Part shown: one piece after another, positions 9,836-48,887 of the stretch | How positions within the stretch are numbered: position 1 is the stretch's first letter | Layout of the letters: each line of letters starts with the position of its first letter | NCBI GenBank assembly: GCA_965217625.1 | Contig: OZ244557.1 | Coordinates: forward strand, 208,082 to 272,081 | Length of the DNA: 64,000 nt | Direction of reading: 5' to 3' | Source: Dehalococcoidia bacterium | GTDB taxonomy: Bacteria; Chloroflexota; Dehalococcoidia; Bin125 | The notes under the pieces: generated by a model | What the model saw: the letters and a program-made list of their open reading frames with translations, nothing else | The model's database searches: none | What the model was told of the DNA's origin: nothing | Position numbers and translations under genes: made by a program

Positions 9836-10021
9836 GGATCACCTCGGTCCCGACGCCTCGCCCCTGCCCCGACAGCCTACCCCCAATCCGACGCCGCGCC
9901 GGGCGCGTACTCTCCTCATGAGTGCCCGCCCCCACGGCGACCACTTCCCCCACCGGCACGAGATGCGGTGATAACCTGCCCCCGACGACGGCGGACGGGG
10001 CCTACGAACGAGTGAGGATCG

Positions 10022-11922: not shown

Positions 11923-12906
11923 ATGAGTTCCAGCCTCTGGGTCTTCATCGCCCGCCGCATCGCCATCGCCCCCATCACGCTCTTCGCAGTGCTGCTCGTC
12001 ACCTTCGCGCTGACGCAGGTCGCCCCCGGCGACCCCGTCCGCATCATCACCGGCCAGCGCACCCCCGACCCCGAGCGCGCCGAGCTGATCCGCGAGGAGT
12101 TCGGGCTCAACGGCTCCTTCGCGGAGCGCTTCGGCAACTACGTGGTGGGCTTCGTGCAGGGCGACCTGGGCCTCTCGTACTTCAACCGCAGCCCCCAGCG
12201 CACCGTCCAGGAGCTGCTGGGTGAGCGCATCTGGGTCTCCGCCCAGCTCGGCCTGATCTCCCTGGCGCTCACCTATCTCTTGGGCATCCCCATGGGCGTC
12301 TTCGCCGCCCTGCACCGCGGCGACTGGAAGGACCCCGGCCTGATCGGCGGGCTGATGGTGTTCAGCGCCATCCCCTCGCTCGTCTTCCTGCCGCTCTTCG
12401 CCTGGCTGCTGGTCTTCCAGCTCGACGCCGTCTTCCTCCTATTCGGCTTCGACATCCCCGCCGTCTGGGTGCCCGGCGACCCCGCCTCCTACCTGATCCC
12501 GGTGGTCGTGCTCACCCTGCCCGGCCTGGCGGGCATGGCCCGCTTCGTGCGCGTCAGCGTGCTCACCGTGATCGATGAGGACTACGTGCGCACCGCCCGC
12601 GCCAAGGGGCTGGGCCAGCGCGCCGTCGTCTACGGGCACGTGCTGCGCAACGCCCTGCTGCCGCTCTCGACCGTGATGGGGCTCAGCATCGTCGGCGTCG
12701 TCGGCGGCGCGATCATCGTCGAGACGCTCTACGGCGTGCCCGGCATCGGCGCCTTCATCTTCCAGTCGGTGCTGCAGCGCGATTTCAACGTCCTGCTCGG
12801 CTTCACGATGCTCGTCGCCACGCTGCTGATCGCCTCCAACCTCATCGTCGACATCTGCTACGTCTTCATCGACCCCCGCATCCGCTACACCCGGCGATCC
12901 GCATGA
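11923..12906 (+). CDS. ABC transporter permease (DppB/OppB-like)
   Basis: Six-TM BPD_transp_1 permease. It begins MSSSLWVFIARRIAIAPITLFAVLLVTFALTQVAPGDP, typical of DppB. Confidence 0.85.
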   Translation: MSSSLWVFIARRIAIAPITLFAVLLVTFALTQVAPGDPVRIITGQRTPDPERAELIREEFGLNGSFAERFGNYVVGFVQGDLGLSYFNRSPQRTVQELLGERIWVSAQLGLISLALTYLLGIPMGVFAALHRGDWKDPGLIGGLMVFSAIPSLVFLPLFAWLLVFQLDAVFLLFGFDIPAVWVPGDPASYLIPVVVLTLPGLAGMARFVRVSVLTVIDEDYVRTARAKGLGQRAVVYGHVLRNALLPLSTVMGLSIVGVVGGAIIVETLYGVPGIGAFIFQSVLQRDFNVLLGFTMLVATLLIASNLIVDICYVFIDPRIRYTRRSA

Positions 12907-29553: not shown

Positions 29554-29643
29554 TGGCGGAGGGGGAGGGATTCGAACCCCCGAGACGCTTGCGCGCCTAG
29601 CGGTTTTCAAGACCGCCGCCTTCAACCACTCGGCCACCCCTCC
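29554..29643 (-). tRNA. tRNA-Ser (anticodon TGA), 90 nt with a long variable arm
   Basis: The reverse complement gives GGAGGGGTGGCCGAGTGGTTGAAGGCGGCGGTCTTGAAAACCGC...GGGGGTTCGAATCCCTCCCCCTCCGCCA. The anticodon loop is CT-TGA-AA, the acceptor stem is 7 bp with a G discriminator, the T-loop is TTCGAAT and a CCA end is encoded. Confidence 0.9.
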
Positions 29644-29682: not shown

Positions 29683-32600
29683 CGCCAAGATTCCCTGCCA
29701 ATCGGCGCTCTTATGAACGACCTCCTGTCTACGGAGGTCGATATGCTGGTCTTCGTGGGCGACCAAATCGAATGACGCCCGTTCCCACCGAATCACTGCG
29801 GGGGATGTGGGCAGGACACGGCGCTGCGACGGAGGCAAGCCATCTTCGACCGGCTTCATGGGGCCATCGAGCGAGCCATTCAAGAACCGCTGAACGGGCG
29901 GCTGTTCGAGCGGTGCGCGGTGGATCTCTTGCGCCAGAACTACTACCCGAAGCTGCGTCCCACCCCGGACGGATACGACACCGGCATAGATGGGATCGCT
30001 GGCCCGGATGCGGATCCGGAGTTCGTCCTGGTGGCCACGGTCGCGCAGGATCCCGCGCGCAATCTGAGGGGGAGCGTCAAGCGCCACGTAGATGCCGGTG
30101 GCCCGGGCCGGACCGTCGTATTCGCCACGTCGCAAGCGATCACCGTCGCGCGGCGGCGGCGGCTGGAAGAGGAGTTGAAGGACAAATTCGGGGCTCGGCT
30201 CCTCGCAGTGCATGACTGCGGTGACTTCGTCTGGATGCTCTACGACCACCCCCAGTGGCGGAAGGATCTGCTCGGTGTCGCGGGCGCAGCAAAGGCGCTT
30301 AGTCGATTCCCCGCCAACTCGCGGCCGACGCCTGCGGTCCCCTTGATCGGGCGCGATGCAGATCTCGAGCGACTGCAAGCCGTGACCGGCGATCTCCTAG
30401 TGGTGGGTAAGCCCGGCGTCGGCAAGACGTTCCTGCTGGAACAACTGGCGTCCGAGGGCTGGGGTCTCTTCGATGCGGGATGGGCCATCGACAAGCTTGA
30501 GGACGCCGTCCGGGAGATGAAGCCGCGGCGGGTCGTGGTCGACGACGCACATTTGAAGGGGGAGGACCGCATCCCCCAAGTCGTGAGGCTGCGTCGGGAG
30601 ATGAACGTCGACTTCGACATCGTGGGCGTCTCGTGGCCGGGCCAAGCTGACACCGTGTCGGGGCAGTTGCCCGAGGCGACGCGCTTCGACGTTGAAGAGC
30701 TGGAGCGTGACCAGATCGTCGAAGTGATTGAGCAAGCGGGCATTGGGGGCCCGCCGGAATTGCAGCGCACCATCGTCGATCAGGCCCGCGGCTGCGTGGG
30801 GCTGGCGGTCACACTCGCCCGCGCCTGCGTCGCGGGCAGGGTCCATGAAGTTGCGACGGGCGAAGCGCTCGTCGACGATCTCGTCCGATGGTATGAGCGA
30901 AGGCTGGGTTCAGAGAGTCGTCACATGCTCGGAGTGCTGGCGCTCGCGGGTGACGGCGGCGTGACCCTTGGGCAGGCTCGCGAGATCCTGGGCCTCACCG
31001 TACCTCAGAGCAGCAGCCTCATCCGCGGTCTGGCTTCGGGCGGCACCATTGATGAGGTTCCGTACCGCGCGCCGCGGATGCGGGTGCAGCCCGAAGCACT
31101 GCGCTATGCGCTGGTGCGAGACGTGTTCTTCGGCGGGCTCGGATCGCTGGATGCTGCCAGTGCCATCGATGGCCTCGACCCTCCTTCGGTTGCTGCGATC
31201 CCGCTCATCGGGGCGTCGCATCGTGGCGCGGATGTTGACCGCGGGCTGTTGCAGTCGATTGTTGATTGGAGCGATAAGAGAACTGCCGTGGAATACGCAT
31301 GTCTCGGCCCGGGTGAGTTCCAGACGGCGCTTGAGCAAGCGCCGACGCACCGCACGCCAGTCGCCGAGGCCGCGCTCAAGTTTGGAATCGATACCCGACG
31401 CGCGCTCCAGGTTCTCATGGGACAGGCTGTGGGTGATGATCGCTCCGAGCACAACACGCCCGAACACCCTCTCCGCATCGTCGGTGACCACCTCGCACGG
31501 AGAGAGACGCCATTCGAGGCGAGAAGGCTCGCCGTGGAGGTTGCGGACTCGTGGTTCAAGGAGGGAGGCGACGGCGAGGTCGGGGTCCGCGTGCTGATGC
31601 ACGCCGTGCGGTTGGAGCTGCACGGTGCGGTGCAGGATCCGGGGGTCGGGGACACACTCCGGATATACCGGGGGATGGTGCCCAAGCCGTGGATCGACGA
31701 GCTCTCGCGCCTCTGGGATTCGATCCTCGACATCTTCGATCGCGAGCCCAACCTGCTTCCCGCCCCTCTCCTGGACGCATTGCATCCTTGGGTTCAACCA
31801 AACACGGTTGTCCTCGGACGGGGGCTGGACGACGAGGCTTTCGTTGAGATCCGAAGAATCGCCGCCCGCGTAGTAGCGCGGCTGGCGGAGATATTCGGAG
31901 ATCGCCCAGGTGTGCTGCGCTCCCTGAATGAGCATGTGGAGCGTGGGAATATCCCGGTCCCGATCGAGTTGCCGGACTACTTCACAGTGCTTTTCCCGAA
32001 ACGCTGGGACGGTTCTGACGACGACGACGGGCTAGACGGGTGGCAGCGTCGGGCCGACGCGGGGGTGCGGCGCTTAGCGGAACAACTGCGCAAAGAGTCT
32101 ACCGACGACATCGCGGCGTTCATCGTAGGCGCAGACTCTCAGGCCGCCACGGCCGGAATCACGTACCCGCGTCACACGCCTCATCTCGCCAGAAGGCTCG
32201 CCGCAGACTCGGACTCGCCCGAAGCGTTGCTCGCCGCCCTGGAAGCGAGCACGGCGGCCCCTGACATCCTCCTGCCGCTCCTCGACCGCGTTGCTGAACT
32301 CCAGCGTCCGGGTTGGGAAGCAACCCTCGAACGTCTGCTCGCTGAGGATCGGGCGGCTTGGGTGCCTATCCAGGTCGCACTGACCCGCCCCTGCGACAAC
32401 CGGCTCAAACAGCTGGCGATCAAGCAGACTGGACCCTGGCTCAGTCTCATTGACAACCTCGTGATCATGGACCAGATCGAGCACGCGACGCTCGCGCTCC
32501 TCTTCGACGCGCCTGACGCCAGCGTTCGGAAACAAGCAGCGACGACGATAGGAAGCGTGGATTCTGGGTGCCGGCTCGAGAGCCTGTCTCCCTCCATGCT

Positions 32601-33272
32601 CTCGCGCTGGCGACAGATCATCGTGGACAGTCCCGCAGGCGACTACTGGTTCTCCGAAATCCTCAAGCACGACGATGAACTCTGCGCCGACTGGCTCCGG
32701 GCCTGGTTCAAGCGGTACGCCCAGGGCGAGTACGCATTCCTCCCGCGAGAAGTCAGCGCGGTGATCGCCAGCTTGCCCGCGGACGTCCGGGTCACGCTCA
32801 TCGGAGACGTGCCCGCCGACGCGCCACTGTCGCTGCTGCAGGACGCAGTCCGGAGTCTCGTGTCCCATGACCTTGACGTGATGATGGCTCTCTTTGACCG
32901 ACCCGAACTTGAGTGGCTGCATAGCGTCGCATTGCGGGGTGGGCCCAGCGAGGTCTGGATGGACCGCGCGCTAGCAGCTCTGGATCGCGGGTGGGAACCA
33001 GAGCGGATCGTCTCGGCAACGGAGTTCTCCGAAGCAGCATGGTTCGGTGAGGAGAGCCAGCATTGGCAGGGAAAGATTGACTCCTTCGCAGGTTTTCGTC
33101 AGAAGATGGGGGAGCCCCTCGATGCGCGGCAGGAGCGGATCATCGCGGCGGGAGTCGCCTACTTCGAGCGACACCGCGACGAAGCCGCTAAGCGTGAACA
33201 CCGCGAGCGTGTGTTCGGTCGGGGATCGTAGCAAGCAACGATGTCGAGGCCGGACTACTACCTAGCGTCCCC
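29644..33272. mobile_element. Roughly 3.6-kb low-GC genomic island inserted next to tRNA-Ser. It is bounded by att-like direct repeats and carries one giant ORF. No integrase is present.
   Basis: GC falls to about 60% against about 72% around it. The direct repeats duplicate the tRNA 5' end and the 3' end of the neighbouring phosphohexomutase gene. Confidence 0.5.
29920..33231 (+). CDS. Large island-encoded protein (at least 1103 aa) with an N-terminal Mrr-like (PD-(D/E)xK) restriction-endonuclease-like domain, a P-loop NTPase and a helical C-terminal region of about 800 aa. It is a candidate Avs/STAND-like defence protein. The true start is probably upstream, since the frame is open from 29776.
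   Basis: Mrr_cat-like FERCAVDLLRQNYYPKL...DTGIDGI. Walker A LLVVGKPGVGKTFLLEQLA. Walker B RRVVVDDAHL. The open frame continues upstream through ...AIFDRLHGAIERAIQEPLNGRL before reaching a TGA at 29773-29775. Confidence 0.6.
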   Translation: MDLLRQNYYPKLRPTPDGYDTGIDGIAGPDADPEFVLVATVAQDPARNLRGSVKRHVDAGGPGRTVVFATSQAITVARRRRLEEELKDKFGARLLAVHDCGDFVWMLYDHPQWRKDLLGVAGAAKALSRFPANSRPTPAVPLIGRDADLERLQAVTGDLLVVGKPGVGKTFLLEQLASEGWGLFDAGWAIDKLEDAVREMKPRRVVVDDAHLKGEDRIPQVVRLRREMNVDFDIVGVSWPGQADTVSGQLPEATRFDVEELERDQIVEVIEQAGIGGPPELQRTIVDQARGCVGLAVTLARACVAGRVHEVATGEALVDDLVRWYERRLGSESRHMLGVLALAGDGGVTLGQAREILGLTVPQSSSLIRGLASGGTIDEVPYRAPRMRVQPEALRYALVRDVFFGGLGSLDAASAIDGLDPPSVAAIPLIGASHRGADVDRGLLQSIVDWSDKRTAVEYACLGPGEFQTALEQAPTHRTPVAEAALKFGIDTRRALQVLMGQAVGDDRSEHNTPEHPLRIVGDHLARRETPFEARRLAVEVADSWFKEGGDGEVGVRVLMHAVRLELHGAVQDPGVGDTLRIYRGMVPKPWIDELSRLWDSILDIFDREPNLLPAPLLDALHPWVQPNTVVLGRGLDDEAFVEIRRIAARVVARLAEIFGDRPGVLRSLNEHVERGNIPVPIELPDYFTVLFPKRWDGSDDDDGLDGWQRRADAGVRRLAEQLRKESTDDIAAFIVGADSQAATAGITYPRHTPHLARRLAADSDSPEALLAALEASTAAPDILLPLLDRVAELQRPGWEATLERLLAEDRAAWVPIQVALTRPCDNRLKQLAIKQTGPWLSLIDNLVIMDQIEHATLALLFDAPDASVRKQAATTIGSVDSGCRLESLSPSMLSRWRQIIVDSPAGDYWFSEILKHDDELCADWLRAWFKRYAQGEYAFLPREVSAVIASLPADVRVTLIGDVPADAPLSLLQDAVRSLVSHDLDVMMALFDRPELEWLHSVALRGGPSEVWMDRALAALDRGWEPERIVSATEFSEAAWFGEESQHWQGKIDSFAGFRQKMGEPLDARQERIIAAGVAYFERHRDEAAKREHRERVFGRGS

Positions 33273-34989: not shown

Positions 34990-35211
34990 TGTCACCCTGC
35001 TCCCGACTGTCCCTCCCACGCCCATCACCTTCTACCGTAAGTACGCGCAGGGCATGCACATCCTCTATCGCATTCCGGACATGAACAGCGTCCCGGTCGA
35101 GGTCCAGATTGCCTGGTTCGTCGACGCCTAGCCGGAGAGAACTCCCTCCCGGGCGAGGCGATTCTGCGTATTGGGCTACTCGACGACGGCGAGACTGTGG
35201 TAGTCGTGGGC

Positions 35212-35463
35212 CTAGGTGAGCTTCGCGACTGCGACGGCGACGGCGGCGACGGCGACGGCGAAGCCGGCGAGCCGGAACAGGGCCGCGTAGATGTCGGCTC
35301 GCAGCGCCGCGATGTCCTCCCGCAGCGCTGCGACGTCGTCGCGCCCGGGCGCGACCGCTTCCCCGATCACTGCCGCGATCGTCTCGGCCGCGGCCGGCGG
35401 CTGATCCGCCTCGTCGCGGAGACGTTGGGCCGCCCTGAGGGTGTCGAACGCCATCGTACGCAC
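35212..35463 (-). CDS. DUF1640-family small coiled-coil protein with a C-terminal transmembrane helix
   Basis: MRTMAFDTLRAAQRLRDEADQPPAAAETIAAV... follows the DUF1640 pattern (xFDTLxxxxxLxxAG). C-terminal hydrophobic tail AGFAVAVAAVAVAVAKLT. Paralog of 50796-51287. Confidence 0.6.
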   Translation of the reverse strand: MRTMAFDTLRAAQRLRDEADQPPAAAETIAAVIGEAVAPGRDDVAALREDIAALRADIYAALFRLAGFAVAVAAVAVAVAKLT

Positions 35464-35498
35464 AGCCTACGCCACGCGCCTGACGCCCGCCTCCGCGA

Positions 35499-36929
35499 CT
35501 ACGCGCCGGCGCGGAACAGCGCGTTGGCCGACTCGGCCAGGGCCATGCGGTCGGTGACGGGCGGGCCCGCGACGGGCGGGTCCGCGTCGGGCCAGTAGCC
35601 CTCGGGCACGGTCCAGAAGCGCAGGACGCGCAGCCGTGGGTCGCCGGTCTCCGTGAGCCGCCGCCCGGCCTCGATGATCGCCTCGCCGAGCACCGTCTGC
35701 TTGAAGATCCAGTCGTTCAGCGCCCGGTGCGACGGCGCCTGCCCCGTCGCCAGCGCGCCCGGCTGCGCGACCACCGCCTCCTGGTAGTACGAGCGCAGGT
35801 CCTGCGCGACGTGGCGCAGCAGGTACGGCATCGGGTGGCCCCAGGCGACGCCGGCGCCCGCGTCGGGCACGCGGTCCAGCGCCGCGCCCTCGGCGACGGC
35901 GGCCAGCACCGCGGCCAGGGTCTCGGCGTGCGCCGGCACGTCGTCGCCGGCGACCGGGCCGCTGCCGCCCACGACGCTGCGGCCGCGGGCGCGGTGCGTC
36001 TCGCGCCACCAGGGCGCCAGGCCCTGGACCTCGGCCCGCAGCCGGCCGGCCAGCGTGTCGCTCTCGGGCGGCGCGAACGCGACGGGGCAGGCCCACGTAT
36101 CGGAGAACGACGCCGCCGGCGCGTCGATGGGGTAGTCGACGATGCCGTGCTCGCTCAGCGTCGGCAGCAGGTCGAGCGCCGCCCGCAGCACGTCGCGCTG
36201 GAAGCCGGGGTCGTCCGGCACGCCGAACGGGCGGCCCAGGTAGAACGACACCCACAGCGCCCGCGGCGGGTTCATCACCTCGCTGTGCTCGCGGATAAGC
36301 GAGATGCTGGTCGTCGCGACGCCCTCCCGCTCGATGAAGTGCGCCAGCGCACCCACGGTGCGCGTGCAGGCCGGTCAAACGGGCGCCAGCACCACGGCGT
36401 CGACGCCGTCCCGCTTGAGCAGCCGGCCCACCTCGCGCGCCGCCGGCTCGAGCCGCTCGGGCCGTGGCACGCCGCCCATGAACGAGTAGTGCCAGCGCGC
36501 CACCGCGCCGATCTCGCCCGCCGCGGCCAGCTCGCGCAGCCGCTCCAGCGGCAGCACGACGTTGGCGTCCTGCTCGAGCGCCGAGCGGTCCCAGTTCACG
36601 CTCACGTGCGAGCTGACCAGGTCGGCGAGGTCGACATCGCCGGGGATCAGGCGGTAGTCGATCGCGCCGGCGGCGAAGCGCGCGTCGTCGCGGCGGTGCA
36701 GCCCCGCCGTCGTGATCAGCGCGATGGTCGACTCGGCCAGCGGCTTGGGCGTGATCCAGTCGCCGGGCGCAATGCGGGTGGGCGGCATATCGCGCATGTG
36801 CTCGGCCTCTTCGGGGTGCAGATCGGACAGGCGGACCATGTGTGCTCCTCGCTGCCGCGGGCGCTCGGCCCGCGGCCGGTCCAGCATCGCACGCCCGGGC
36901 GGCCGGTTGTCAACCCGACCGCGTACCAT
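35499..36929 (-). CDS. Selenoprotein B homolog (glycine/sarcosine/betaine/D-proline reductase GrdB/PrdB family) with an in-frame TGA codon at 36375-36377. Predicted selenocysteine in the motif VVLAPV-U-PACTRT.
   Basis: Track ORFs 36375..36929 and 35499..36356 are in the same frame, separated only by TGA plus 6 codons. The joined sequence ...RLRELAAAGEIGAVARWHYSFMGG...GVDAVVLAPV[U]PACTRTVGALAHFIEREG aligns to the PrdB/GrdB Sec region (..GVDAVILTAG-U-GTCHR/CTRC..). A hairpin GCGCAC-cgugg-GUGCGC begins 12 nt after the UGA. Confidence 0.65.
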
Positions 36930-37088
36930 GCGTCCTCATGGGGATGAACGCCAGGCTCACTTCCGCCGCCGAGGCCTACTTCGAGGAACTTCGCCGCGTG
37001 CGCGCGTCGGGCGGCGCGACGGCGGAACGCTCCCGCTACCACAGTCGTGGAGTTCCTCACAGCCACAGTTCCGGCGGGCGAGAGAGCG

Positions 37089-37304
37089 CTAGTCCTCCTC
37101 GATCTCCCATGCGCCGAATGCAGCCACCTCGACCGAGCCCGTAGCGTCGAGACGGAAGACGTCGTCTTCGTCGGAGGAGAGGGCCCGGGCAGCCTCAATG
37201 CGCTCCTCGTCTGTGGCGTAGGGGCCGTGCAGTTCGGGCTCGACGCTTCCCCAGACATACAGTAGGTAGCGTTGCGTAACCTCGCCGTTCGCCTCTGTGG
37301 CCAT
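37089..37304 (-). CDS. Small acidic hypothetical protein (71 aa)
   Basis: Strong RBS (AAGGAG) 10 nt upstream of the ATG at 37304. Sits in a low-GC region immediately downstream of the 37322-38209 gene. The upstream extension of the track ORF is junk. Confidence 0.4.
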   Translation of the reverse strand: MATEANGEVTQRYLLYVWGSVEPELHGPYATDEERIEAARALSSDEDDVFRLDATGSVEVAAFGAWEIEED

Positions 37305-37321
37305 CCTGCTCTCCTTCCTCT

Positions 37322-38209
37322 TTACGCCGGAATCCGCTGATGCCAGCGGAACACGTCTGCGTTGGTCATGAAGCCGCACAGCTTGTCGAGGCCGCTCGCC
37401 TGGAACGTCGGACGACGGAGATTCCTCGCGAACACGCTGCGCCTCATCTCGTCGGCCACGATGGTGAACCTTGGCGGCTCTGTGAGGGACAGATGGACGT
37501 CGTTCATCCGCAACAGCCCAGAGTAGATTGGCGTCGAGTGTTCGACCTCGTACAGGCTGACTGGAGTGTTGGCGCCCCGCGCCATCCACACTACGTCGAT
37601 CTCACGCACCACGGAGTCGAGGCCCGGCGGCATCGTTGTCCGGAACGGAAACCGTGGCACAAGACTCCAGTCCATCTTCTGGCGATCGTTCGGTGGAACC
37701 CACACGTCGAGGCCCCGGGCATCGCCGATCGCACCCAGTAGCGTCTGCACTTGTGAGTGATCGAGAGCCGGCGCCTCGTCTCGGGCGTCTGCCAGTGCGC
37801 CGAGCAGCGCCTCCCAGCCGAAGTACGCCTCGACATTGTGACGTCCGGCTCGCGCGATGTAGAACTCGGTGGGTTGGCTGTCGTGGATGTAGACCTGCGC
37901 CTTGACTTGGCCGTCGGCAGCCGGTCCAGCTTCGTCGAAGAGCTCGCCGAAGTGAGCCAGCGGGAGCAGCAACGGCTCAACCTGTCCGTCCCACAGCAGC
38001 GCGATAAACGCCGTCCGCCCATCGAGTTCTCGCAAGTCCTGCTCGCGGAGACCATAGAAGGTGTTGCCCTTTTCGTAGACGCGTGAGTAGCGCACGTACA
38101 CGAGCGTCTGCCCGTCGCCGAGTTCGAACAGCGATCGACTGTTACCCAGTCGCTTCAGCTGCCCCGCTCGTTCGGAGAGCTCCCGCAGAAACGCTTCGCG
38201 TGGCTTCAT
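37322..38209 (-). CDS. Hypothetical protein (295 aa), a possible PD-(D/E)xK-type nuclease (motifs LDVWVP / EIDVVW...YEVEHS)
   Basis: Low-GC (about 60%) gene. The start is placed at MKPREAF. No confident family assignment; the nuclease-like motif is weak. Confidence 0.4.
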   Translation of the reverse strand: MKPREAFLRELSERAGQLKRLGNSRSLFELGDGQTLVYVRYSRVYEKGNTFYGLREQDLRELDGRTAFIALLWDGQVEPLLLPLAHFGELFDEAGPAADGQVKAQVYIHDSQPTEFYIARAGRHNVEAYFGWEALLGALADARDEAPALDHSQVQTLLGAIGDARGLDVWVPPNDRQKMDWSLVPRFPFRTTMPPGLDSVVREIDVVWMARGANTPVSLYEVEHSTPIYSGLLRMNDVHLSLTEPPRFTIVADEMRRSVFARNLRRPTFQASGLDKLCGFMTNADVFRWHQRIPA

Positions 38210-38536
38210 GCTCCTGACGATACCGCGAACCTGCTGCCCAGCGCACGGTCGGCAGCGCGCCGAGATTCTTGTCGACGCGGGTATCGTCAAGATTGCTGAT
38301 CAGTGCAGGCCATGCTCGAAGTGCGAGACGATTCGGTTGCGCATCTTCGGCCCCCGCTCACGGAACACCGGAAAGAGGCTCGACCGCCCCCGACCCCGCC
38401 CCGCTCCCGCGCCACCGCCCGACGCCCGTCGCATCGCGGCGATCGTCGGGCTGGTGGCGTCGGGCTGACCCCCGCCCCGGCTCCGTCGTCGCTCCCACCC
38501 CCGGGCGCGCGATAGACTTGACGAGCGGAGGACGGA

Positions 38537-38842
38537 ATGGCCGAGCAGGCTCTCAGCAGCAGCGACACGCTGGCCCTCCTACGGGCGCACAAGCCGGTGC
38601 TGGCCGAGCGTTTCGGCGTGTCCGGCCTCGCGCTGTTCGGCTCCACCGTCCGCGACGAGGCGGGGCCGGACAGCGACATCGACATCCTCGTGAGCTTCAC
38701 GCGGCCTCTCGGGTCGAAGCGGTACTTCGGCGCCTGGCACTACATCGAGGACCTGCTCGGCCGCCCGATCGACTTCGTCACGGACAGGGAATTGCGCCCG
38801 GAGCTACGGCCCTACGTTGAAGCTGAGGCGGTGCATGTCTGA
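38537..38842 (+). CDS. Minimal nucleotidyltransferase (MNT-type, antitoxin half of HEPN/MNT pairs), apparently orphaned
   Basis: GSTVRDEAGPDSDIDILV is the nucleotidyltransferase GS...D.D motif. Only a 38-codon ORF (38835-38951) overlaps its stop, and it is not convincingly HEPN. Confidence 0.75.
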   Translation: MAEQALSSSDTLALLRAHKPVLAERFGVSGLALFGSTVRDEAGPDSDIDILVSFTRPLGSKRYFGAWHYIEDLLGRPIDFVTDRELRPELRPYVEAEAVHV

Positions 38843-38928
38843 GCCGCGCTGGGATCTGTACGTGCGCGACGCCACCCTGAGCTCCGAAGGAGTGATAGAC
38901 TTAGCAACCAGCGAACGGGAAGGGTGCG

Positions 38929-39204
38929 ATGGTAGCCATGACGACGACTGACCTCAGCGCTCGCGTGACAGTCCTCAGCGATCACGTGACAGTCCTCAGC
39001 GATCACCTGACAGTCCTCAGTGATCGCGTGACAGGCCTCAGCGATCGCGTAACGCACGTTGAAGCATCGATCAGGCATCTCGCGACCAAGACCGACCTCG
39101 CCCAGGCGGAAACGCGGCTCACCCGCTGGACGGTCGCGACCATGCTTGCCGGCATGGCCGCCGCCGCGGCGATCGCCGCGGCCGTCGCCGCCCTCGCCGG
39201 CTAG
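38929..39204 (+). CDS. Small heptad-repeat protein (VTVLSDH x5) with a C-terminal TM helix. DUF1640-like C-terminus (LATKTDLAQAETRLTRW...).
   Basis: It is encoded across a 21-bp tandem DNA repeat. The C-terminus resembles the DUF1640 paralogs in this window. Confidence 0.35.
   Translation: MVAMTTTDLSARVTVLSDHVTVLSDHLTVLSDRVTGLSDRVTHVEASIRHLATKTDLAQAETRLTRWTVATMLAGMAAAAAIAAAVAALAG
38952..39060. repeat. About five tandem copies of a 21-bp unit (GTGACAGTCCTCAGCGATCAC and variants)
   Basis: Read directly. The copies differ by 1-2 nt each. Confidence 0.8.
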
Positions 39205-39239
39205 GACGCCGACACGCCCCAGCGCGCCCGGCCCCGCCC

Positions 39240-42097: not shown

Positions 42098-42234
42098 GTC
42101 GGCTCCTTCCGTCGCGTGCGTCCGTGTTTCGCGGATGTTAGCGCCCCGTCCCCCCGTCGCGCGATACTGGGGTCGGGGCTTCCACCGGTCCCGGGTCGAG
42201 GCGGAGCGCGAATCTCCCGGAAGGGTGCGATGAG

Positions 42235-42582
42235 ATGGTGGTCCCGGTTTACGAACTTCTGCAGGGCGGAGCGCTCGTGACCCGCGAGGGCGCGACAAGG
42301 CTCGCGCCCCATCTGGCGGACGCCGTCGAGTCCTGCGACGGGACGCCCTGCTTGACCCTCGATCTTGCCGGCACCGTCGCGCTCGCCCCCGGCTTCTTCG
42401 ACGAACTCCTCGGCATCCTCACCGAACTCTCGGAGGGCCGCGTCCGCATCATCACGATCACCAACCCGCCCCGGCCTCTCGCCAAGAAGGACAGGACTGT
42501 CGCCCGACGTCGCGGCGCCGAGATCACGGAGGTCGGCGAGGCCGAGTGGGAGATCCGTCTCCCCGCCCCCGCGCCCGCCTAA
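42235..42582 (+). CDS. STAS-like small protein (DUF4325-like)
   Basis: LTLDLAGTVALAPGFFDELLGILTEL matches the DUF4325 pattern (..vvlDFegV..issSFldEl.g.l..). Confidence 0.4.
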   Translation: MVVPVYELLQGGALVTREGATRLAPHLADAVESCDGTPCLTLDLAGTVALAPGFFDELLGILTELSEGRVRIITITNPPRPLAKKDRTVARRRGAEITEVGEAEWEIRLPAPAPA

Positions 42583-42615
42583 CTCCCTCGCCCTACGGGC
42601 CCGGCCCCTTCGGGC

Positions 42616-43608
42616 TCAAGCGTCCCCCGTGCGACCGTAGTGCTCGCGGTCCGTGTCGGTCACTCCGTATCCGACACCCAACTCGATCCTCGATGCCACC
42701 GACAACTGCCGAACAGCATCGAGATCCTCGGTGGGAGTGTCACGTGTTTCCCCATACCAGCCCTCGTATAAGTCGCCGATCTCTGCGTTGAGCACCCGAC
42801 TAAGCGCCAGAAAGACCGTAGGGGCGTCATTCGCTATTTCCCGCACCCGGGTGCCCACGGCGCTCGACAGTTCGCCCAACTCGGGCTCCTGGTCAACACG
42901 ACTGACGAACGAATCGAACGTGCGCCAGCCCTCGTTCTGATCCGTTACGGCATGGCGCGCGAGTGCGCCCTGCAAGGAGCCGGTGACTCCGAGACCCCAG
43001 GGCTGCGGCAACAGCTTCCACACTTGGTCTTCGCGTTCGTGCGAGGAGAGCACGATGCCCGGTACGAGTTCGCTTGATCGGAGCGGGTTAGAGCGGCTCC
43101 GCACGGAGTCGAACAACACAGTGTAGCGACAGATATCGTAGAACGCCTCGACTTCACGTTCGGCGAGGAATGAGATCAACTCCTGGGTCGGTTCCACTTG
43201 CGCAATGACGTCGCCGATCGTGCGCAACGTCGCTCCGAGGTCTCCGCAGACGGCGGCCAGTGGAGCGAGGTATGCCGGCACGTATCGGTCAAGGCGGTCT
43301 CTGAACGCCATTGTGATCTTGAACGCTTGCTCTCTTCTCAGCCGCTCAGCCTTGTATGCGTGGTGGAGGCTCGTTCCGACGATCGAGAGCAGCGGCGTGA
43401 GCACACCCGTGACGACCACTGCCTTTGCCGTTTCATGACCCTGGTCTGGGAACAAGAGATCCCATGTGGCGAGGAAGAGAATCGCTACCACGAGCGATGC
43501 CAGCACCGAAAGCGTGATCGGTGCTGCATACGCACTCAGAGTGGAGCGGATTCTCCTCACCGTGTCTCCGGAAGTCCTGCCACTGTTGGGTTGGTGGCCC
43601 CCGACCAA
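42616..43608 (-). CDS. Hypothetical membrane protein (two N-terminal TM helices plus a cytoplasmic domain), low-GC
   Basis: Hydrophobic segments ITLSVLASLVVAILFLATW and AVVVTGVLTPLLSIVGTSL. No family recognised. GC is about 58%. Confidence 0.4.
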   Translation of the reverse strand: MVGGHQPNSGRTSGDTVRRIRSTLSAYAAPITLSVLASLVVAILFLATWDLLFPDQGHETAKAVVVTGVLTPLLSIVGTSLHHAYKAERLRREQAFKITMAFRDRLDRYVPAYLAPLAAVCGDLGATLRTIGDVIAQVEPTQELISFLAEREVEAFYDICRYTVLFDSVRSRSNPLRSSELVPGIVLSSHEREDQVWKLLPQPWGLGVTGSLQGALARHAVTDQNEGWRTFDSFVSRVDQEPELGELSSAVGTRVREIANDAPTVFLALSRVLNAEIGDLYEGWYGETRDTPTEDLDAVRQLSVASRIELGVGYGVTDTDREHYGRTGDA

Positions 43609-44130
43609 GTTCTGGCGCGAGAAGCGCTCGCCAGCTCTGAAGTGTCGGGCCTTACTGACGTGGTTGCCGGAGCGATGGTTGGGGAGGCGGCGTTCGGCGC
43701 GGTGGCGGAGCGGCTGGCGTCCGGGGTACAGGCCGCGGGGCCGGTGGCGGTACCCCTCGTGTGTAGGGGATGGGCCTCGGGGCCGGCGGAGGCGGCGGAT
43801 TCTCGGCCGATGGTGCTTGCACTGTCACTCCGACCCCCTTCTCTTTCCAGCGTCCTTGCCACTCGGACTGCCCGATTTCGGGACCGGGCGGGGCGGCGGC
43901 GGTGGCGCGCTGTCCCCGAGCCGTGTGGGCTTGGCGTCCCCGCCTTTGTTCGCCATCATCCCACTTTACTTCTTCGGAGGAGGCGGAGGAGGTTCTTGCG
44001 GTTTCGGGATCGGTCGCGGACTAGAGGGGTGAAGGGACCTCTCTTCGATCTCCAGCTCGGGTCTTGGATTCGGCATGATCGCAGGGTAGACCAGAGCGAC
44101 GCGACGGCGGCCTCGTTCTGTCACGACCCC

Positions 44131-45519
44131 CTACGGGCCCGTCATCTGCTCCGGCTGCACCCAGGCGTCGAACTGCTCTGGGGTGAGCAGGCCCAACTCG
44201 ACGCCCGTCTCCTTGAGCGTGGCGCCCCGCTCGTGCGCGGTCTTCGCGATCTTCGCGGCGTTGTCGTAGCCGATGTGCGGGTTGAGCGCCGTGACCAGCA
44301 TCAGCGACCGGCGCATCAGCTCGTCGATCCGCTCCCGGTTCGGCTCGATGCCGCGCACGCAGTTCTCCGTGAACGACGTCGCCGCGTCGCCCAGCAGGCG
44401 GATGCTCTGCAGGTTGTTGTAGGCCATCACCGGCTTGAACACGTTCAACTCGAAGTGGCCCGTCGCGCCGCCCACCGCGACCGTCTGGCCGTTGCCGATG
44501 ACCTGCGCGCAGACCATCGTCAGCGCCTCCGACTGCGTGGGGTTGACCTTGCCCGGCATGATGCTCGACCCCGGCTCGTTGGCCGGCAGCATCAGCTCCC
44601 CGATGCCCGCCCGCGGCCCCGAGCCCAGCAGCCGCACGTCGTTGGCGATCTTCATCAGCGACGCCGCCACCGTCGTCAGCTGGCCGGCCAGCTCGACCTG
44701 CGCGTCGTGCGCCGCCAGCGCCTCGAACTTGTTCGGCGCGGTCACGAACGGCAGCCCCGTCAGCGCCGCGATCTCCGCCGCCACCCGCTGGCCGTACTCG
44801 GGGTGCGAGTTGAGGCCCGTGCCCACCGCCGTGCCGCCCAGCGCCAGCTCGTAGAGCCGCGGCAGCGTGCCCTCGACCCGCGCGATGCCGTACGTCACCT
44901 GCTGCACGTAGCCCGAGAACTCCTGTCCCAGCGTCAGCGGCACGGCGTCCATCAGGTGCGTCCGCCCGATCTTCACGATCTCATCGAACGCCGACGCCTT
45001 CTCCTGCAGCGCGTCGCGCAGCGTGGTCAGCGACGGCGCCAGGTGGTTCACGACCTGCTCCGCCGTCGCCACAGACATCGCCCCGGGGAAGACGTCGTTC
45101 GACGACTGCGACATGTTGACGTGGTCGTTGGGGTGCACCGGCGTCTTCGAGCCGCGCTCGCCGCCCAGCAGCTCGATCGCCCGGTTCGAGATCGCCTCGT
45201 TGCCGTTCATGTTGCTCTGCGTGCCCGAGCCGGTCTGCCAGACGACCAGCGGGAAGTGGTCGTCGAGCGTGCCCGCGATCACCTCCTCGGCCGCCTGCCG
45301 GATGGCCGCCGCGCGCTCGGCGTCGAGCTTGCCCAGCGACTCGTTGGCGCTGGCCGAGGCGTGCTTGACGATGCCCAGCCCGCGGATGATCGGCCGCGGC
45401 ATGCGCTCGCCGCCGATCTTGAAGTTCTCCAGCGAGCGCTGCGTCTGCGCCCCCCAGTAGCGGTCGGCCGGCACCGCGATCTCGCCCATCGTGTCCGATT
45501 CGATTCGCACGTCGCTCAT
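44131..45519 (-). CDS. fumC: Fumarate hydratase class II
   Basis: GSSxMPxKxN signature ([11 protein letters not shown]). 462 aa. Confidence 0.95.
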
Positions 45520-45598
45520 CTCGGCTCCTGACTGCGACGCCCCGGGGAGACCGGGGCGCCGTGCTCGTTCCTGCTTCGGGGCCCGGCGCCCGGCCGCC

Positions 45599-48887
<3,289 letters not shown>

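What the first reader, a model, noticed from the sequence alone, without database searches (positions are those of the whole stretch)
37089..39230. Low-GC accessory patch holding an acidic mini-protein, a possible nuclease, an orphan MNT nucleotidyltransferase and a 21-bp tandem-repeat gene
GC falls to about 60% over 37089-38300. The 295-aa protein has weak PD-(D/E)xK-like motifs (EIDVVW...YEVEHS). It is followed by a 71-aa highly acidic protein with a strong RBS, reminiscent of an anti-restriction or DNA-mimic protein. An MNT gene then has no intact HEPN partner; only a 38-codon overlapping ORF is present. After it, five tandem copies of a 21-bp unit encode VTVLSDH heptads in a small TM protein. 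Together this looks like the remains of a defence or TA island with ongoing decay and repeat instability.
Basis: partly seen in the sequence, partly recalled or inferred. Interest (0 to 1): 0.5.

Follow-up and report, generated by a model that had tools for sequence, protein, structure and literature searches.

The report
Eroded defence island with live nuclease pair
This stretch is a horizontally acquired, partly wrecked bacterial defence island. A restriction-type nuclease and a tiny partner gene are still kept intact by selection, although the methylase that once guarded the host against that nuclease has decayed to a 25-codon stump.

Summary
GC drops to 63.3% against 71.0% for the window.

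The interpretation, a decaying defence/TA island, is largely right but it missed the main structure. The 295-aa protein has two PD-(D/E)xK-like folds in tandem, and the C-terminal half is the NmeDI_C catalytic domain. The 71-aa gene is its conserved downstream partner, found in 50 of 83 related loci across many phyla. Both genes are under purifying selection (dN/dS 0.1-0.2).

Upstream lies a 25-codon stump of a beta-class N6/N4 DNA methyltransferase. In relatives this methylase is intact in 2 loci and cut back from its 3' end in about 14. The pair sits between 31- and 14-codon remnants that match the two ends of a Type ISP-like R-M gene.

The MNT is an MntA-type antitoxin, and its HepT toxin keeps only 12 homologous codons. 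The 91-aa repeat protein belongs to a family of 50-69-aa tail-anchored coiled-coil proteins and carries a lineage-specific heptad expansion. Copy number is unchanged in the one near-identical strain.

How the nuclease is tolerated without a linked methylase is not resolved.

The parts
36947..37039 (+). 31-codon remnant of the N-terminus of a large R-M-type gene. Its counterpart in the related strain L004 is a 221-aa fragment at 12010-12675(-).
   Evidence: tblastn gives 87% identity over 31 aa. Local alignment gives 27/31 identical. L002/L003 keep a different piece, residues 44-77, plus a DUF4145 gene that the window lacks.
37045..38251 (-). Conserved 1.2-kb cassette block: nuclease gene, small partner gene and about 40 nt on each side.
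   Evidence: blastn homology to L004, L005, L006, L007 and L008 starts and stops at these same coordinates, whatever the flanking genes. GC is 63.6%.
37089..37304 (-). 71-aa acidic small partner. It starts 17 nt after the nuclease stop and has a GGAAGGAG ribosome-binding site.
   Evidence: Present directly downstream in all relatives of this clade. dN/dS is 0.10-0.18 at larger distances. It belongs to a 'GDVEPExxGPY' family of 484 cluster representatives. No Pfam, NCBIfam, PADLOC or PHROG hit.
37322..38209 (-). 295-aa two-domain nuclease. Residues 1-148 form a degenerate PD-(D/E)xK-like fold. Residues about 150-295 form the NmeDI_C catalytic domain (D205, E221-V-E223).
38303..38377 (-). 25-codon remnant of a beta-class (SPPY) N6/N4 DNA methyltransferase, at profile positions 105-129, ending in a stop codon.
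   Evidence: tblastn gives 68% identity to the intact methyltransferase of L081. hmmsearch gives E = 8e-5, with the same remnant in L002 and L003. L081's methyltransferase is PF01555 at 1.2e-48.
38424..38468 (+). 14-codon remnant, plus stop, of the C-terminus of a Type ISP-like R-M gene.
   Evidence: ARRIAAIVGLVASG* against ARRIAAILGLVAAG* of the L004 115-aa fragment, which carries Pfam Type_ISP_C.
38537..38842 (+). MNT / MntA-type nucleotidyltransferase antitoxin, 101 aa, with GS...DxD intact. It is now an orphan.
   Evidence: PF01909 at 1.3e-14. NCBIfam MntA_antitoxin at 2.7e-10, 40 bits, below the 60-bit cut-off. PADLOC PDC-S09 at 1.6e-23. L004 has the same gene followed by an intact 122-aa HepT.
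38835..38951 (+). Stump of hepT. Only the first 12 codons (38835-38870) are homologous. The remaining 26 codons are unrelated read-through sequence.
   Evidence: MSEPRWDLYVRD against MSERRWDIYVRD of L004 HepT (PF01934). It is identical in L002.
38929..39204 (+). 91-aa tail-anchored coiled-coil membrane protein. The true start may be the ATG at 38938.
   Evidence: Homologues are Chloroflexota proteins of 50-69 aa that share the ...ATKxDLAxxETRLTRWTVATMLAGMAAAAAIAAAV... C-terminus. Pfam hits are only sub-threshold.
38952..39050 (+). 21-bp x 4.7 tandem repeat, an in-frame amplification of one (L)SDRVT heptad.
   Evidence: TRF score 156 with 89% matches. Homologues carry one unit. L002 has the same copy number, and 4 of the 6 substitutions in 461 nt fall inside the array.

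Best explanation
The patch is a horizontally acquired defence island in a Tepidiformaceae-like Chloroflexota genome. Most of it is wreckage, but one unit is alive.

Shown:
1. A 1.2-kb cassette encodes a 295-aa protein with two PD-(D/E)xK-like folds in tandem. The N-terminal fold lacks an obvious D...(D/E)xK triad. The C-terminal fold is the NmeDI_C domain, with invariant D205 and E221-x-E223.
2. A tightly coupled 71-aa partner gene follows it. Both genes are under purifying selection.
3. The cassette descends from a methylase -> nuclease -> small-gene operon. That operon survives intact in a few distant relatives. Here the beta-class N6/N4 methyltransferase is reduced to 25 codons.
4. Flanking stumps of 31 and 14 codons match the two ends of a Type ISP-like R-M gene.
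5. Next door, an MntA/HepT toxin-antitoxin pair has lost the toxin. A small tail-anchored coiled-coil protein has gained about four extra heptads through a 21-bp tandem duplication.

Inferred mechanism:
- The nuclease is a DNA endonuclease. The C-terminal domain cuts, and the N-terminal nuclease-like domain provides target binding or dimerisation.
- Its toxicity no longer depends on a linked methylase.
- My preferred reading (about 0.3 on its own) is that the small protein, made 1:1 with the nuclease, binds and restrains it. That would turn a former R-M operon into a methylase-independent nuclease/immunity pair.
- The orphan MntA persists because losing a toxin is harmless.
- The heptad expansion simply lengthens the coiled-coil stalk.
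For: Nuclease identity:
- PADLOC REase_II at 1.2e-6.
- PF27126 NmeDI_C on 120 of 120 listed homologues.
- The catalytic residues are invariant.

Live cassette:
- dN/dS is 0.13-0.23 for the nuclease and 0.10-0.18 for the small gene.
- The homology block has the same ends, 37045-38251, in five genomes with different flanks.

Partner:
- A 55-85-aa ORF starts within -20 to +26 nt of the nuclease stop in 50 of 83 assessable loci, plus 2 divergent ones, from Chloroflexota, Binatia, Planctomycetota, Verrucomicrobiota, Bacteroidota and others.

Methylase decay:
- Remnant at 38303-38377.
- The methylase is intact in L081 and L036. About 14 other loci show nested 3' truncations that keep the 5' end.
- No amino- or C5-methyltransferase motif ORF exists in the 64 kb.

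Other evidence:
- Island wreckage and strain-specific indels.
- Foreign composition.
- HepT stump.
- Repeat expansion.
- Homologues of the small protein lie in phage-like runs of small ORFs and in a viral contig.
Against: - 31 of 83 loci have an intact nuclease gene with no detectable small partner and no adjacent methylase. Several sit in conserved housekeeping contexts, such as ribosomal protein L25 / purE-purK. The partner therefore cannot be a universal requirement for tolerating the nuclease.
- Homology between this clade's 71-aa protein and the downstream small proteins of other phyla is only borderline (hhalign P 1.5e-4 and 3.9e-4). They may be analogues rather than orthologues.
- Acidity is not conserved.
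- D12-class methyltransferases sit next to the nuclease in four related genomes. An unlinked methylase could therefore protect this genome, and only 64 kb could be inspected.
- No binding, cleavage or toxicity was tested.
- That the two ISP-like stumps come from one former gene rests on position and orientation only.
Confidence: 0.55

Rival explanations
1. Separated R-M system. The nuclease is an ordinary Type II restriction enzyme. The host is protected by an unlinked methyltransferase of matching specificity elsewhere in the 2.8-Mb genome. The small protein is an accessory, for example a regulator or subunit.
For: - Solitary RE genes with distant cognate methylases are documented: 57 of 272 in PMC3488263.
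- D12-class methyltransferases lie directly upstream of the nuclease in L006-L008, convergent in L001/L009, and 6 kb away in L004.
- The intact methylase -> nuclease operon in L081 and L036 shows the nuclease is compatible with, and presumably blocked by, methylation.
- No 4- or 6-bp palindrome is purged from the window, so if the nuclease recognises a short palindromic site, those sites are not being avoided.
Against: - About 14 independent lineages in different phyla lost the linked methylase while keeping the nuclease. Each would need a pre-existing unlinked methylase of the same specificity.
- L004's D12 enzyme is unrelated in sequence to that of L006-8.
- The lost methylase has SPPY, which from my own knowledge is typical of N4-cytosine enzymes. 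D12 enzymes methylate adenine.
- No methyltransferase lies within 64 kb.
Confidence: 0.25
2. Domesticated, non-restriction nuclease. The protein is a structure- or lesion-specific nickase or repair enzyme that works alongside DNA methylation, by analogy with MutH and Vsr. It is harmless on its own, so loss of the methylase has no consequence.
For: - Sequence conservation is unusually high for a restriction enzyme: about 50% identity across phyla and 64% mean column identity.
- Solitary copies sit in conserved housekeeping neighbourhoods in several Chloroflexota species.
- It is found beside two different methyltransferase classes.
- The tandem nuclease folds carry only one obvious active site, which suits a monomeric nickase.
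- The closest folds include Hjc resolvases and RecU.
- NmeDI_C-domain proteins on metal-resistance plasmids are also solitary.
Against: - GC3 is foreign, and the gene lies in a defence island between R-M and TA wrecks.
- Its distribution is patchy and looks horizontally transferred.
- The profile similarity is to a restriction-enzyme family.
- No link to mismatch-repair genes was seen.
Confidence: 0.15
3. Everything here, nuclease pair included, is dead cargo on its way to deletion.
For: Neighbouring elements are clearly degraded: the methyltransferase, HepT and the ISP-like gene. Close strains differ by indels.
Against: Both ORFs are full length in 14 genomes of the clade. dN/dS is 0.10-0.23 out to dS about 0.8-1.2. 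The catalytic residues are invariant.
Confidence: 0.03

Closest known systems
R.NmeDI (Type II restriction endonuclease of Neisseria meningitidis; Pfam PF27126 NmeDI_C; PADLOC REase_II PDLC03534)
   Same: The C-terminal PD-(D/E)xK catalytic core is shared. Residues 202-261 match profile positions 239-300 of 351. All homologues carry PF27126. The ancestral operon contained a DNA methyltransferase.
   Different: R.NmeDI is 351 aa, pairs with a methyltransferase, recognises RCCGGY and cuts on both sides as a tetramer (PMC2095814). Here the N-terminal half shows no sequence match to that profile. It is itself a degenerate nuclease-like fold. The linked methylase is gone, and a small downstream partner is present.
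Solitary restriction endonuclease genes (Ershova et al. 2012, PMC3488263)
   Same: An intact RE-type gene with no adjacent methyltransferase. That paper's explanations (distant methylase, fragments, other) map onto the rivals listed here.
   Different: Here the stump of the lost methylase is still visible. The same loss recurs as a nested series of 3' truncations in many phyla. In addition, the RE gene carries a conserved small partner.
MntA-HepT (MNT-HEPN) type VII toxin-antitoxin systems
   Same: An MNT gene with GS...DxD, whose stop overlaps the start of hepT (ATGTCTGA). The related strain L004 has the complete pair.
   Different: The toxin is reduced to 12 homologous codons and has no Rx4-6H motif. 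Only the antitoxin half survives. The 3' half of this MNT is only weakly similar to that of L004, so the gene is a mosaic.
Toxin-antitoxin and nuclease-immunity pairs (for example reverse-order type II TA such as HigBA or HicAB, from my own knowledge)
   Same: A nuclease gene is followed at -20 to +26 nt by a small gene, which implies co-translation at about 1:1. Homologues of the small gene occur in phage-like contigs.
   Different: There is no homology to any known toxin or antitoxin family. The pairing is not obligatory: 31 of 83 loci lack the small gene. Neutralisation is untested.
Small tail-anchored coiled-coil proteins of Chloroflexota (CCDC90/DUF1640-like, DUF2730-like)
   Same: The 91-aa protein shares the coiled-coil plus C-terminal TM helix (...RWTVATMLAGMAAAAAIAAAV...) with 50-69-aa homologues. 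The window holds a similar 83-aa gene at 35212-35463.
   Different: It carries a lineage-specific in-frame amplification of one heptad (21 bp x 4.7). Pfam matches are below threshold.

Membership tests
Type II restriction-modification system | Endonuclease with a PD-(D/E)xK (or other nuclease) catalytic core | tested here: met
Type II restriction-modification system | Linked cognate DNA methyltransferase gene | tested here: not met
   Only a 25-codon stump remains, at 38303-38377. No ORF of 150 aa or more with (D/N/S)PP(Y/F/W) plus FxGxG motifs, or with C5-methyltransferase motifs, exists in the 64-kb window. The D12 methyltransferases of relatives have no match in the window.
Type II restriction-modification system | Sequence-specific cleavage blocked by the cognate methylation | not testable with these tools
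   This needs purified enzyme and methylated or unmethylated substrates. The palindrome-avoidance scan was uninformative.
NmeDI family (PF27126 NmeDI_C) | C-terminal NmeDI-type nuclease domain | tested here: met
   PF27126 is precomputed on every listed homologue, including the 100%-identical P0001. The local Pfam copy lacks this model.
NmeDI family (PF27126 NmeDI_C) | Full-length similarity to R.NmeDI, including its N-terminal region | tested here: not met
   The profile match is confined to residues 202-261. Plasmid-borne relatives annotated as type II RE align only with residues 136-273.
MntA-HepT type VII toxin-antitoxin | MNT nucleotidyltransferase with the GSx(n)DxD motif | tested here: met
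   PF01909 at 1.3e-14 and PF18765 at 3.4e-10. The sequence reads GSTVRDEAGPDSDIDILV. The MntA equivalog scores 40 bits, below its 60-bit cut-off.
MntA-HepT type VII toxin-antitoxin | Intact HepT/HEPN toxin with the Rx4-6H motif | tested here: not met
   Only 12 N-terminal codons are homologous to L004 HepT. The rest of the 38-codon ORF is unrelated, and there is no other HepT match in the window.
DNA-mimic anti-restriction proteins (Ocr, ArdA type) | Strong negative charge conserved across the family | tested here: not met
   The window protein has net charge -14 and pI 4.05. Positional counterparts in other phyla have a median pI of 7.9, ranging from 4.05 to 11.5.
DNA-mimic anti-restriction proteins (Ocr, ArdA type) | Homology or structural mimicry of B-DNA | tested here: inconclusive
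   There is no Pfam, NCBIfam, PADLOC or PHROG hit.
Type II toxin-antitoxin / nuclease-immunity pair | Two adjacent co-oriented genes with translational coupling | tested here: met
   The spacer is 17 nt here, and ranges from -20 to +26 nt (often an ATGA overlap) in 50 loci.
Type II toxin-antitoxin / nuclease-immunity pair | Obligatory pairing of toxin with antitoxin | tested here: not met
   31 of 83 assessable loci have the nuclease gene without a detectable partner.
Type II toxin-antitoxin / nuclease-immunity pair | Small protein binds and neutralises the nuclease | not testable with these tools
   This needs co-expression and toxicity assays, or a multimer structure prediction.
CCDC90/DUF1640-like tail-anchored coiled-coil proteins | Profile match above threshold | tested here: inconclusive
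   Only sub-threshold hits were found: MbeD_MobD at 0.0029 and DUF2730 at 0.016. One homologue, P0144, carries PF10805. L004 has a neighbouring PF07798 CCDC90-like gene of similar architecture.

The most novel reading that the evidence does not exclude
The nuclease plus small-protein pair is a self-sufficient, methylase-independent two-gene system, either a new nuclease/immunity module or a defence module. It has arisen repeatedly from a Type II methylase -> nuclease -> small-gene operon by deletion of the methylase. The small protein acts as a stoichiometric anti-nuclease, and phages carry homologues of it as anti-restriction factors.
Probability: 0.2. Interest if true: 0.7.

Novelty: new variant of a known kind. 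Interest (0 to 1): 0.45.

Why it matters
Classical theory says a restriction enzyme cannot outlive its methylase. Here about 14 lineages from different phyla have deleted the methylase, always from its 3' end, while the nuclease stays intact. In the window's own clade, where only an internal stump of that methylase survives, the nuclease is measurably under purifying selection. It also often keeps a tightly coupled small partner.

If the partner, or some intrinsic property of the nuclease, replaces methylation as self-protection, this would be a route by which R-M operons turn into TA-like or other defence modules. It would also give a function to a nuclease family with at least 1,800 sequence clusters and to a small-protein family of at least 484 clusters that have no annotation.

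If an unlinked methylase does the job, the locus is simply a well-documented example of a separated R-M system inside an eroding defence island.

Tried and rejected
- Exact-sequence look-ups of the 295-aa protein and of P0001 found no contig.
- A PDB sequence-profile search gave no hit at E <= 1.
- Foldseek against PDB gave nothing below E = 1e-3, only weak nuclease hits such as SPARDA DREN, BstEII, DpnI and Hjc.
- A palindrome-avoidance scan of the 64 kb was meant to guess the recognition site. No 4- or 6-mer is purged; CTCGAG is mildly low at 29 against 61 expected. The scan is uninformative.
- A search for terminal direct or inverted repeats bounding the cassette, or explaining the inversion of the nuclease gene in L001/L009, found only chance-level matches in 70%-GC DNA.
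- The DNA-mimic idea is rejected as a family property, because charge is not conserved.
- Pfam and PHROG scans of ten longer proteins that carry the small-protein domain found no informative co-domain.
- The nuclease family was not found in GenBank phages or IMG/VR.
- Two metagenome scans for the repeat gene, one exact and one codon-degenerate, found nothing, so copy-number variation could be checked in one strain only.
- The 21-bp repeat as a contingency locus is not supported. The copy number is the same in L002 and the repeat is in-frame.
Full report
**Observation.**
- GC over 37089-38300 is 63.3%, against 71.0% for the window and 75.7% for the adjacent core genes.
- Third-position GC of the two cassette genes is 0.78, against 0.89-0.99 for the neighbouring core genes. 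The DNA is compositionally foreign.
- TRF finds a 21-bp unit x 4.7 copies at 38952-39050.
- The ORFs of 295, 71, 101, 38 and 91 codons are as described.
- The 71-aa protein has 18 acidic and 4 basic residues and a GGAAGGAG ribosome-binding site.

**Source organism.** The closest relatives are metagenome-assembled genomes labelled Tepidiformaceae or Dehalococcoidia, in the phylum Chloroflexota.
- One contig, L002, is 95-97% identical to the window over about 13 kb.
- A second, L004, carries a 92%-identical copy of the nuclease gene in a different chromosomal context.

**The 295-aa protein.**
- The local Pfam, NCBIfam and PHROG scans are blank.
- PADLOC's REase_II model matches residues 202-261 at E = 1.2e-6.
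- All 120 listed homologues, out of 1,819 with E <= 1e-3, carry the newer Pfam model PF27126 NmeDI_C.
- The family is about 300 aa long and strongly conserved: about 50% identity between phyla and 64% mean column identity. E203, D205, E221 and E223 are invariant.
- An AlphaFold model built on 27 sequences has pLDDT 89.7.
- The protein is thus two nuclease-like folds in tandem.
- The canonical strands of the N-terminal fold carry no obvious D...(D/E)xK triad. This is my reading, not a structural test.
- The C-terminal fold has D205...E221-V-E223. From my own knowledge this is a BamHI-like 'ExE' variant.
- The family was absent from GenBank phages and IMG/VR.
- Plasmid-borne proteins annotated 'type II restriction endonuclease' share only the C-terminal domain, and they too lack adjacent methylases.

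**The 71-aa protein is a partner, not a stray.**
- In all 14 genomes of the Tepidiformaceae/Dehalococcoidia clade it lies 16-17 nt after the nuclease stop. The one exception is L001/L009, where the nuclease gene alone is inverted.
- In other phyla a 55-85-aa ORF starts within -20 to +26 nt of the nuclease stop, often as an ATGA overlap. It has the pattern hWhhhhVxxGhPhxVxxF...A...E...R..hNPDYDEtGhFxh.
- Profile searches place a small partner directly downstream in 50 of 83 assessable loci.
- Homology between the two groups is only borderline (hhalign P 1.5e-4 and 3.9e-4, with congruent alignments). They are certainly positional counterparts and possibly orthologues.
- A profile of the clade's own version finds 484 cluster representatives of a 'hYLLhhhGDVEPExxGPYxTxxER..AAR...dGhFRLD' domain.
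- Many of these are stand-alone 60-90-aa proteins that sit in runs of small same-strand ORFs typical of phage early regions. One such contig carries a phage P22 domain, and one IMG/VR contig places the domain near an XRE/CopG-like regulatory region.
- Others are domains inside longer actinobacterial-looking proteins with Cys-rich motifs. Pfam and PHROGs say nothing about any of them.
- Acidity is specific to this clade: median pI 4.2, against 7.9 for the counterparts elsewhere.

**Both genes are alive.** Nei-Gojobori dN/dS against six related genomes is 0.13-0.23 for the nuclease and 0.10-0.18 for the small gene at dS 0.3-1.2. The nucleotide homology block begins and ends at window 37045 and 38251 in five genomes whose flanks differ. 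It therefore behaves as a discrete 1.2-kb cassette.

**The missing methylase.**
- A full-length beta-class N6/N4 methyltransferase lies directly upstream of the nuclease gene, on the same strand, in L081 and L036. It has an SPPY motif and matches PF01555 at 1.2e-48.
- A profile of that methylase finds only N-terminal fragments in about 14 further loci from various phyla. They end at profile positions 184, 137, 129, 102, 93, 85, 78, 76, 62, 53, 50, 41, 37 and 29, and each runs up to the nuclease start.
- A DNA alignment of the related pair L081/L069 shows a clean deletion of about 210 nt. It ends 8 nt before the nuclease ATG.
- In the window, and identically in L002 and L003, a 25-codon internal piece survives at 38303-38377 on the nuclease strand (profile 105-129; LFPVFRERGPKMRNRIVSHFEHGLH*).
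- No ORF in the 64 kb carries methyltransferase motifs.
- In four clade genomes a D12-class adenine methyltransferase sits next to the nuclease instead.
- In most loci the neighbours are housekeeping genes: L25, purE/K, dnaE, fumarase.

**The surrounding wreckage.**
- In L004 the cassette is flanked on the opposite strand by two pieces. One is a 221-aa N-terminal fragment, which my reading suggests has a PD...EVK Mrr-like motif. The other is a 115-aa fragment carrying Pfam Type_ISP_C.
- The window keeps 31 codons of the first piece (36947-37039, 27/31 identical) and 14 codons of the second (38424-38468, 12/14 identical).
- I infer that the methylase-nuclease-small cassette replaced the interior of a Type ISP-like R-M gene.
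- Closely related strains have eroded differently. L002/L003 keep residues 44-77 of the N-terminal piece and a 222-aa DUF4145 gene that the window lacks. L004 additionally has an M78-peptidase/DUF4411 pair.

**MNT and HepT.**
- The MNT matches PF01909 at 1.3e-14 and has an intact GS...DxD. It falls below the cut-off of the MntA equivalog model.
- Its stop overlaps the start of the 38-codon ORF.
- The first 12 residues of that ORF (MSEPRWDLYVRD) match the intact 122-aa HepT of L004 (MSERRWDIYVRD). Similarity then stops.
- No other HepT-like sequence is present in the window.
- This is therefore an orphan antitoxin beside a toxin stump. The breakpoint is at about 38871, and the sequence beyond it belongs to the next gene's upstream region.

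**The repeat gene.**
- Its homologues are 50-69-aa Chloroflexota proteins of the form MTTQADxLSDRVTRIEAxLEHLATKADLAQxETRLTRWTVATMLAGMAAAAAIAAAV... They are a short coiled coil ending in a membrane anchor, and they contain one copy of the LSDRVT heptad.
- The window and L002 have 4.7 copies, which adds about 28 residues of helix.
- L002 has the same copy number. Four of the six substitutions in 461 aligned nt fall inside the 99-nt array (binomial p about 0.02 by my own arithmetic), which hints at exchange between units.
- Two metagenome scans found no further alleles.
- The expansion is therefore lineage-specific. Present-day instability is unproven.

**How it most likely works.** Shown: a restriction-type nuclease gene and a coupled small gene persist under selection after loss of the linked methylase. 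The loss recurs across phyla and always spares the 5' end of the methylase gene, which presumably holds the operon promoter.

Because L081 and L036 hold an intact methylase and nuclease together, the nuclease is not dependent on that modification. The ancestral unit was an ordinary R-M operon. Three explanations remain for tolerance of the nuclease.
- The small protein restrains the nuclease. This is my preferred mechanistic reading, at about 0.3. It is supported by the coupling, the breadth of the association and the phage homologues. It is weakened by the 31 loci that lack a partner.
- An unlinked methylase protects the genome. This is a known situation (PMC3488263), and it is supported by the D12 neighbours. 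It is weakened by the number of independent losses and by the likely difference in target base.
- The nuclease is intrinsically harmless because it is a nickase or repair enzyme. This is supported by the high conservation, the housekeeping contexts and the single active site. It is weakened by the foreign composition and the defence-island setting.

A palindrome-avoidance scan could not discriminate between these.

**Verdict.** The finding is real. 'Remains of a defence/TA island' is right for the methylase, the HepT and the ISP-like gene, and wrong for the nuclease pair.

Most of this is ordinary defence-island turnover. The unusual parts are the tandem-nuclease architecture, the conserved small partner and the nested methylase deletions. 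To my knowledge these are not described. They make a compact, testable question about how a restriction enzyme outlives its methylase.

Noticed in passing
L081, L036, L069, L028, L031, L064, L067, L037, L079, L034, L047, L030, L041, L060, L080, L038 (upstream of the nuclease gene at about locus position 10000): The N6/N4 methyltransferase upstream of the nuclease gene shows a nested series of 3' truncations. The fragments end at profile positions 29 to 184, always keep the 5' end and always abut the nuclease start. L060 has an internal deletion joining residues 1-42 to 249-280. L068 has only a C-terminal piece, downstream of a broken nuclease gene.
   Followed up: partly
L001 7700-9783 (same genome as L009) compared with L006-L008 8560-11121: Relative to the order methylase -> nuclease -> small gene in L006-8, the nuclease gene alone is inverted in L001/L009. 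It becomes divergent from the small gene and convergent with, and overlapping, the D12 methyltransferase. No convincing flanking inverted repeats were found.
   Followed up: partly
window 35021-35470: This segment is swapped between strains. The window has an 83-aa DUF1640-like coiled-coil/TM gene (35212-35463). The 95-97%-identical contig L002 has a DUF2283 gene plus an 84-aa gene in the same place.
   Followed up: no
window 42203-44129: This is a second low-GC (61-66%) variable segment, between the ADH-like gene and fumarase. It is largely replaced in L002, where only 263 nt align at 82%. It is probably another accessory island.
   Followed up: no
window 38500-38536 and 38893-38928: The 9-mer GATAGACTT occurs about 20-30 nt upstream of both the MNT start and the start of the 91-aa gene, just past the hepT breakpoint. 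It could be a shared promoter or operator element, or chance.
   Followed up: no
window 35499-36929: Two adjacent minus-strand genes of 184 and 285 aa. The first matches only the C-terminal part of glycine/D-proline reductase selenoprotein B (GRDB 4.3e-12; PrdB 3.1e-25 but far below the cut-off). This looks like a split or divergent GrdB/PrdB-like pair, conserved in L002.
   Followed up: no
L086 3269-4534 (Deinococcus aetherius plasmid); L087 3293-4588 (Sphingobium plasmid pSPHCH01 and at least 14 other sphingomonad plasmids): Proteins of about 420-430 aa share only the NmeDI_C domain. They sit alone, with no methylase listed, inside heavy-metal resistance regions of plasmids. The sequence is near-identical across many sphingomonad plasmids.
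   Followed up: partly
L011, L012, L013, L025 (8475-12900): In four Dehalococcoidia genomes the nuclease plus small-gene cassette sits between fumarase and malate dehydrogenase. Those two genes are adjacent to each other in the window (44134-46555), about 6 kb from the cassette. This suggests a regional insertion hot spot or an old rearrangement.
   Followed up: partly
window 29554-29643 and 30000-33200: A tRNA-Ser(TGA) gene lies next to a 3-kb stretch of lower GC (63-67%) where GC skew changes sign. It may be an integration site for another mobile element.
   Followed up: no
L084 949-1176: In the phage-like contig that carries a stand-alone homologue of the small protein, another small ORF (MLPTFEVTIIVEGAVDAIETFFDKEDAEHFADAE...) has the same strand-turn-strand-helix pattern as the small partners of other phyla. 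This is a possible link between the two small-protein groups.
   Followed up: no
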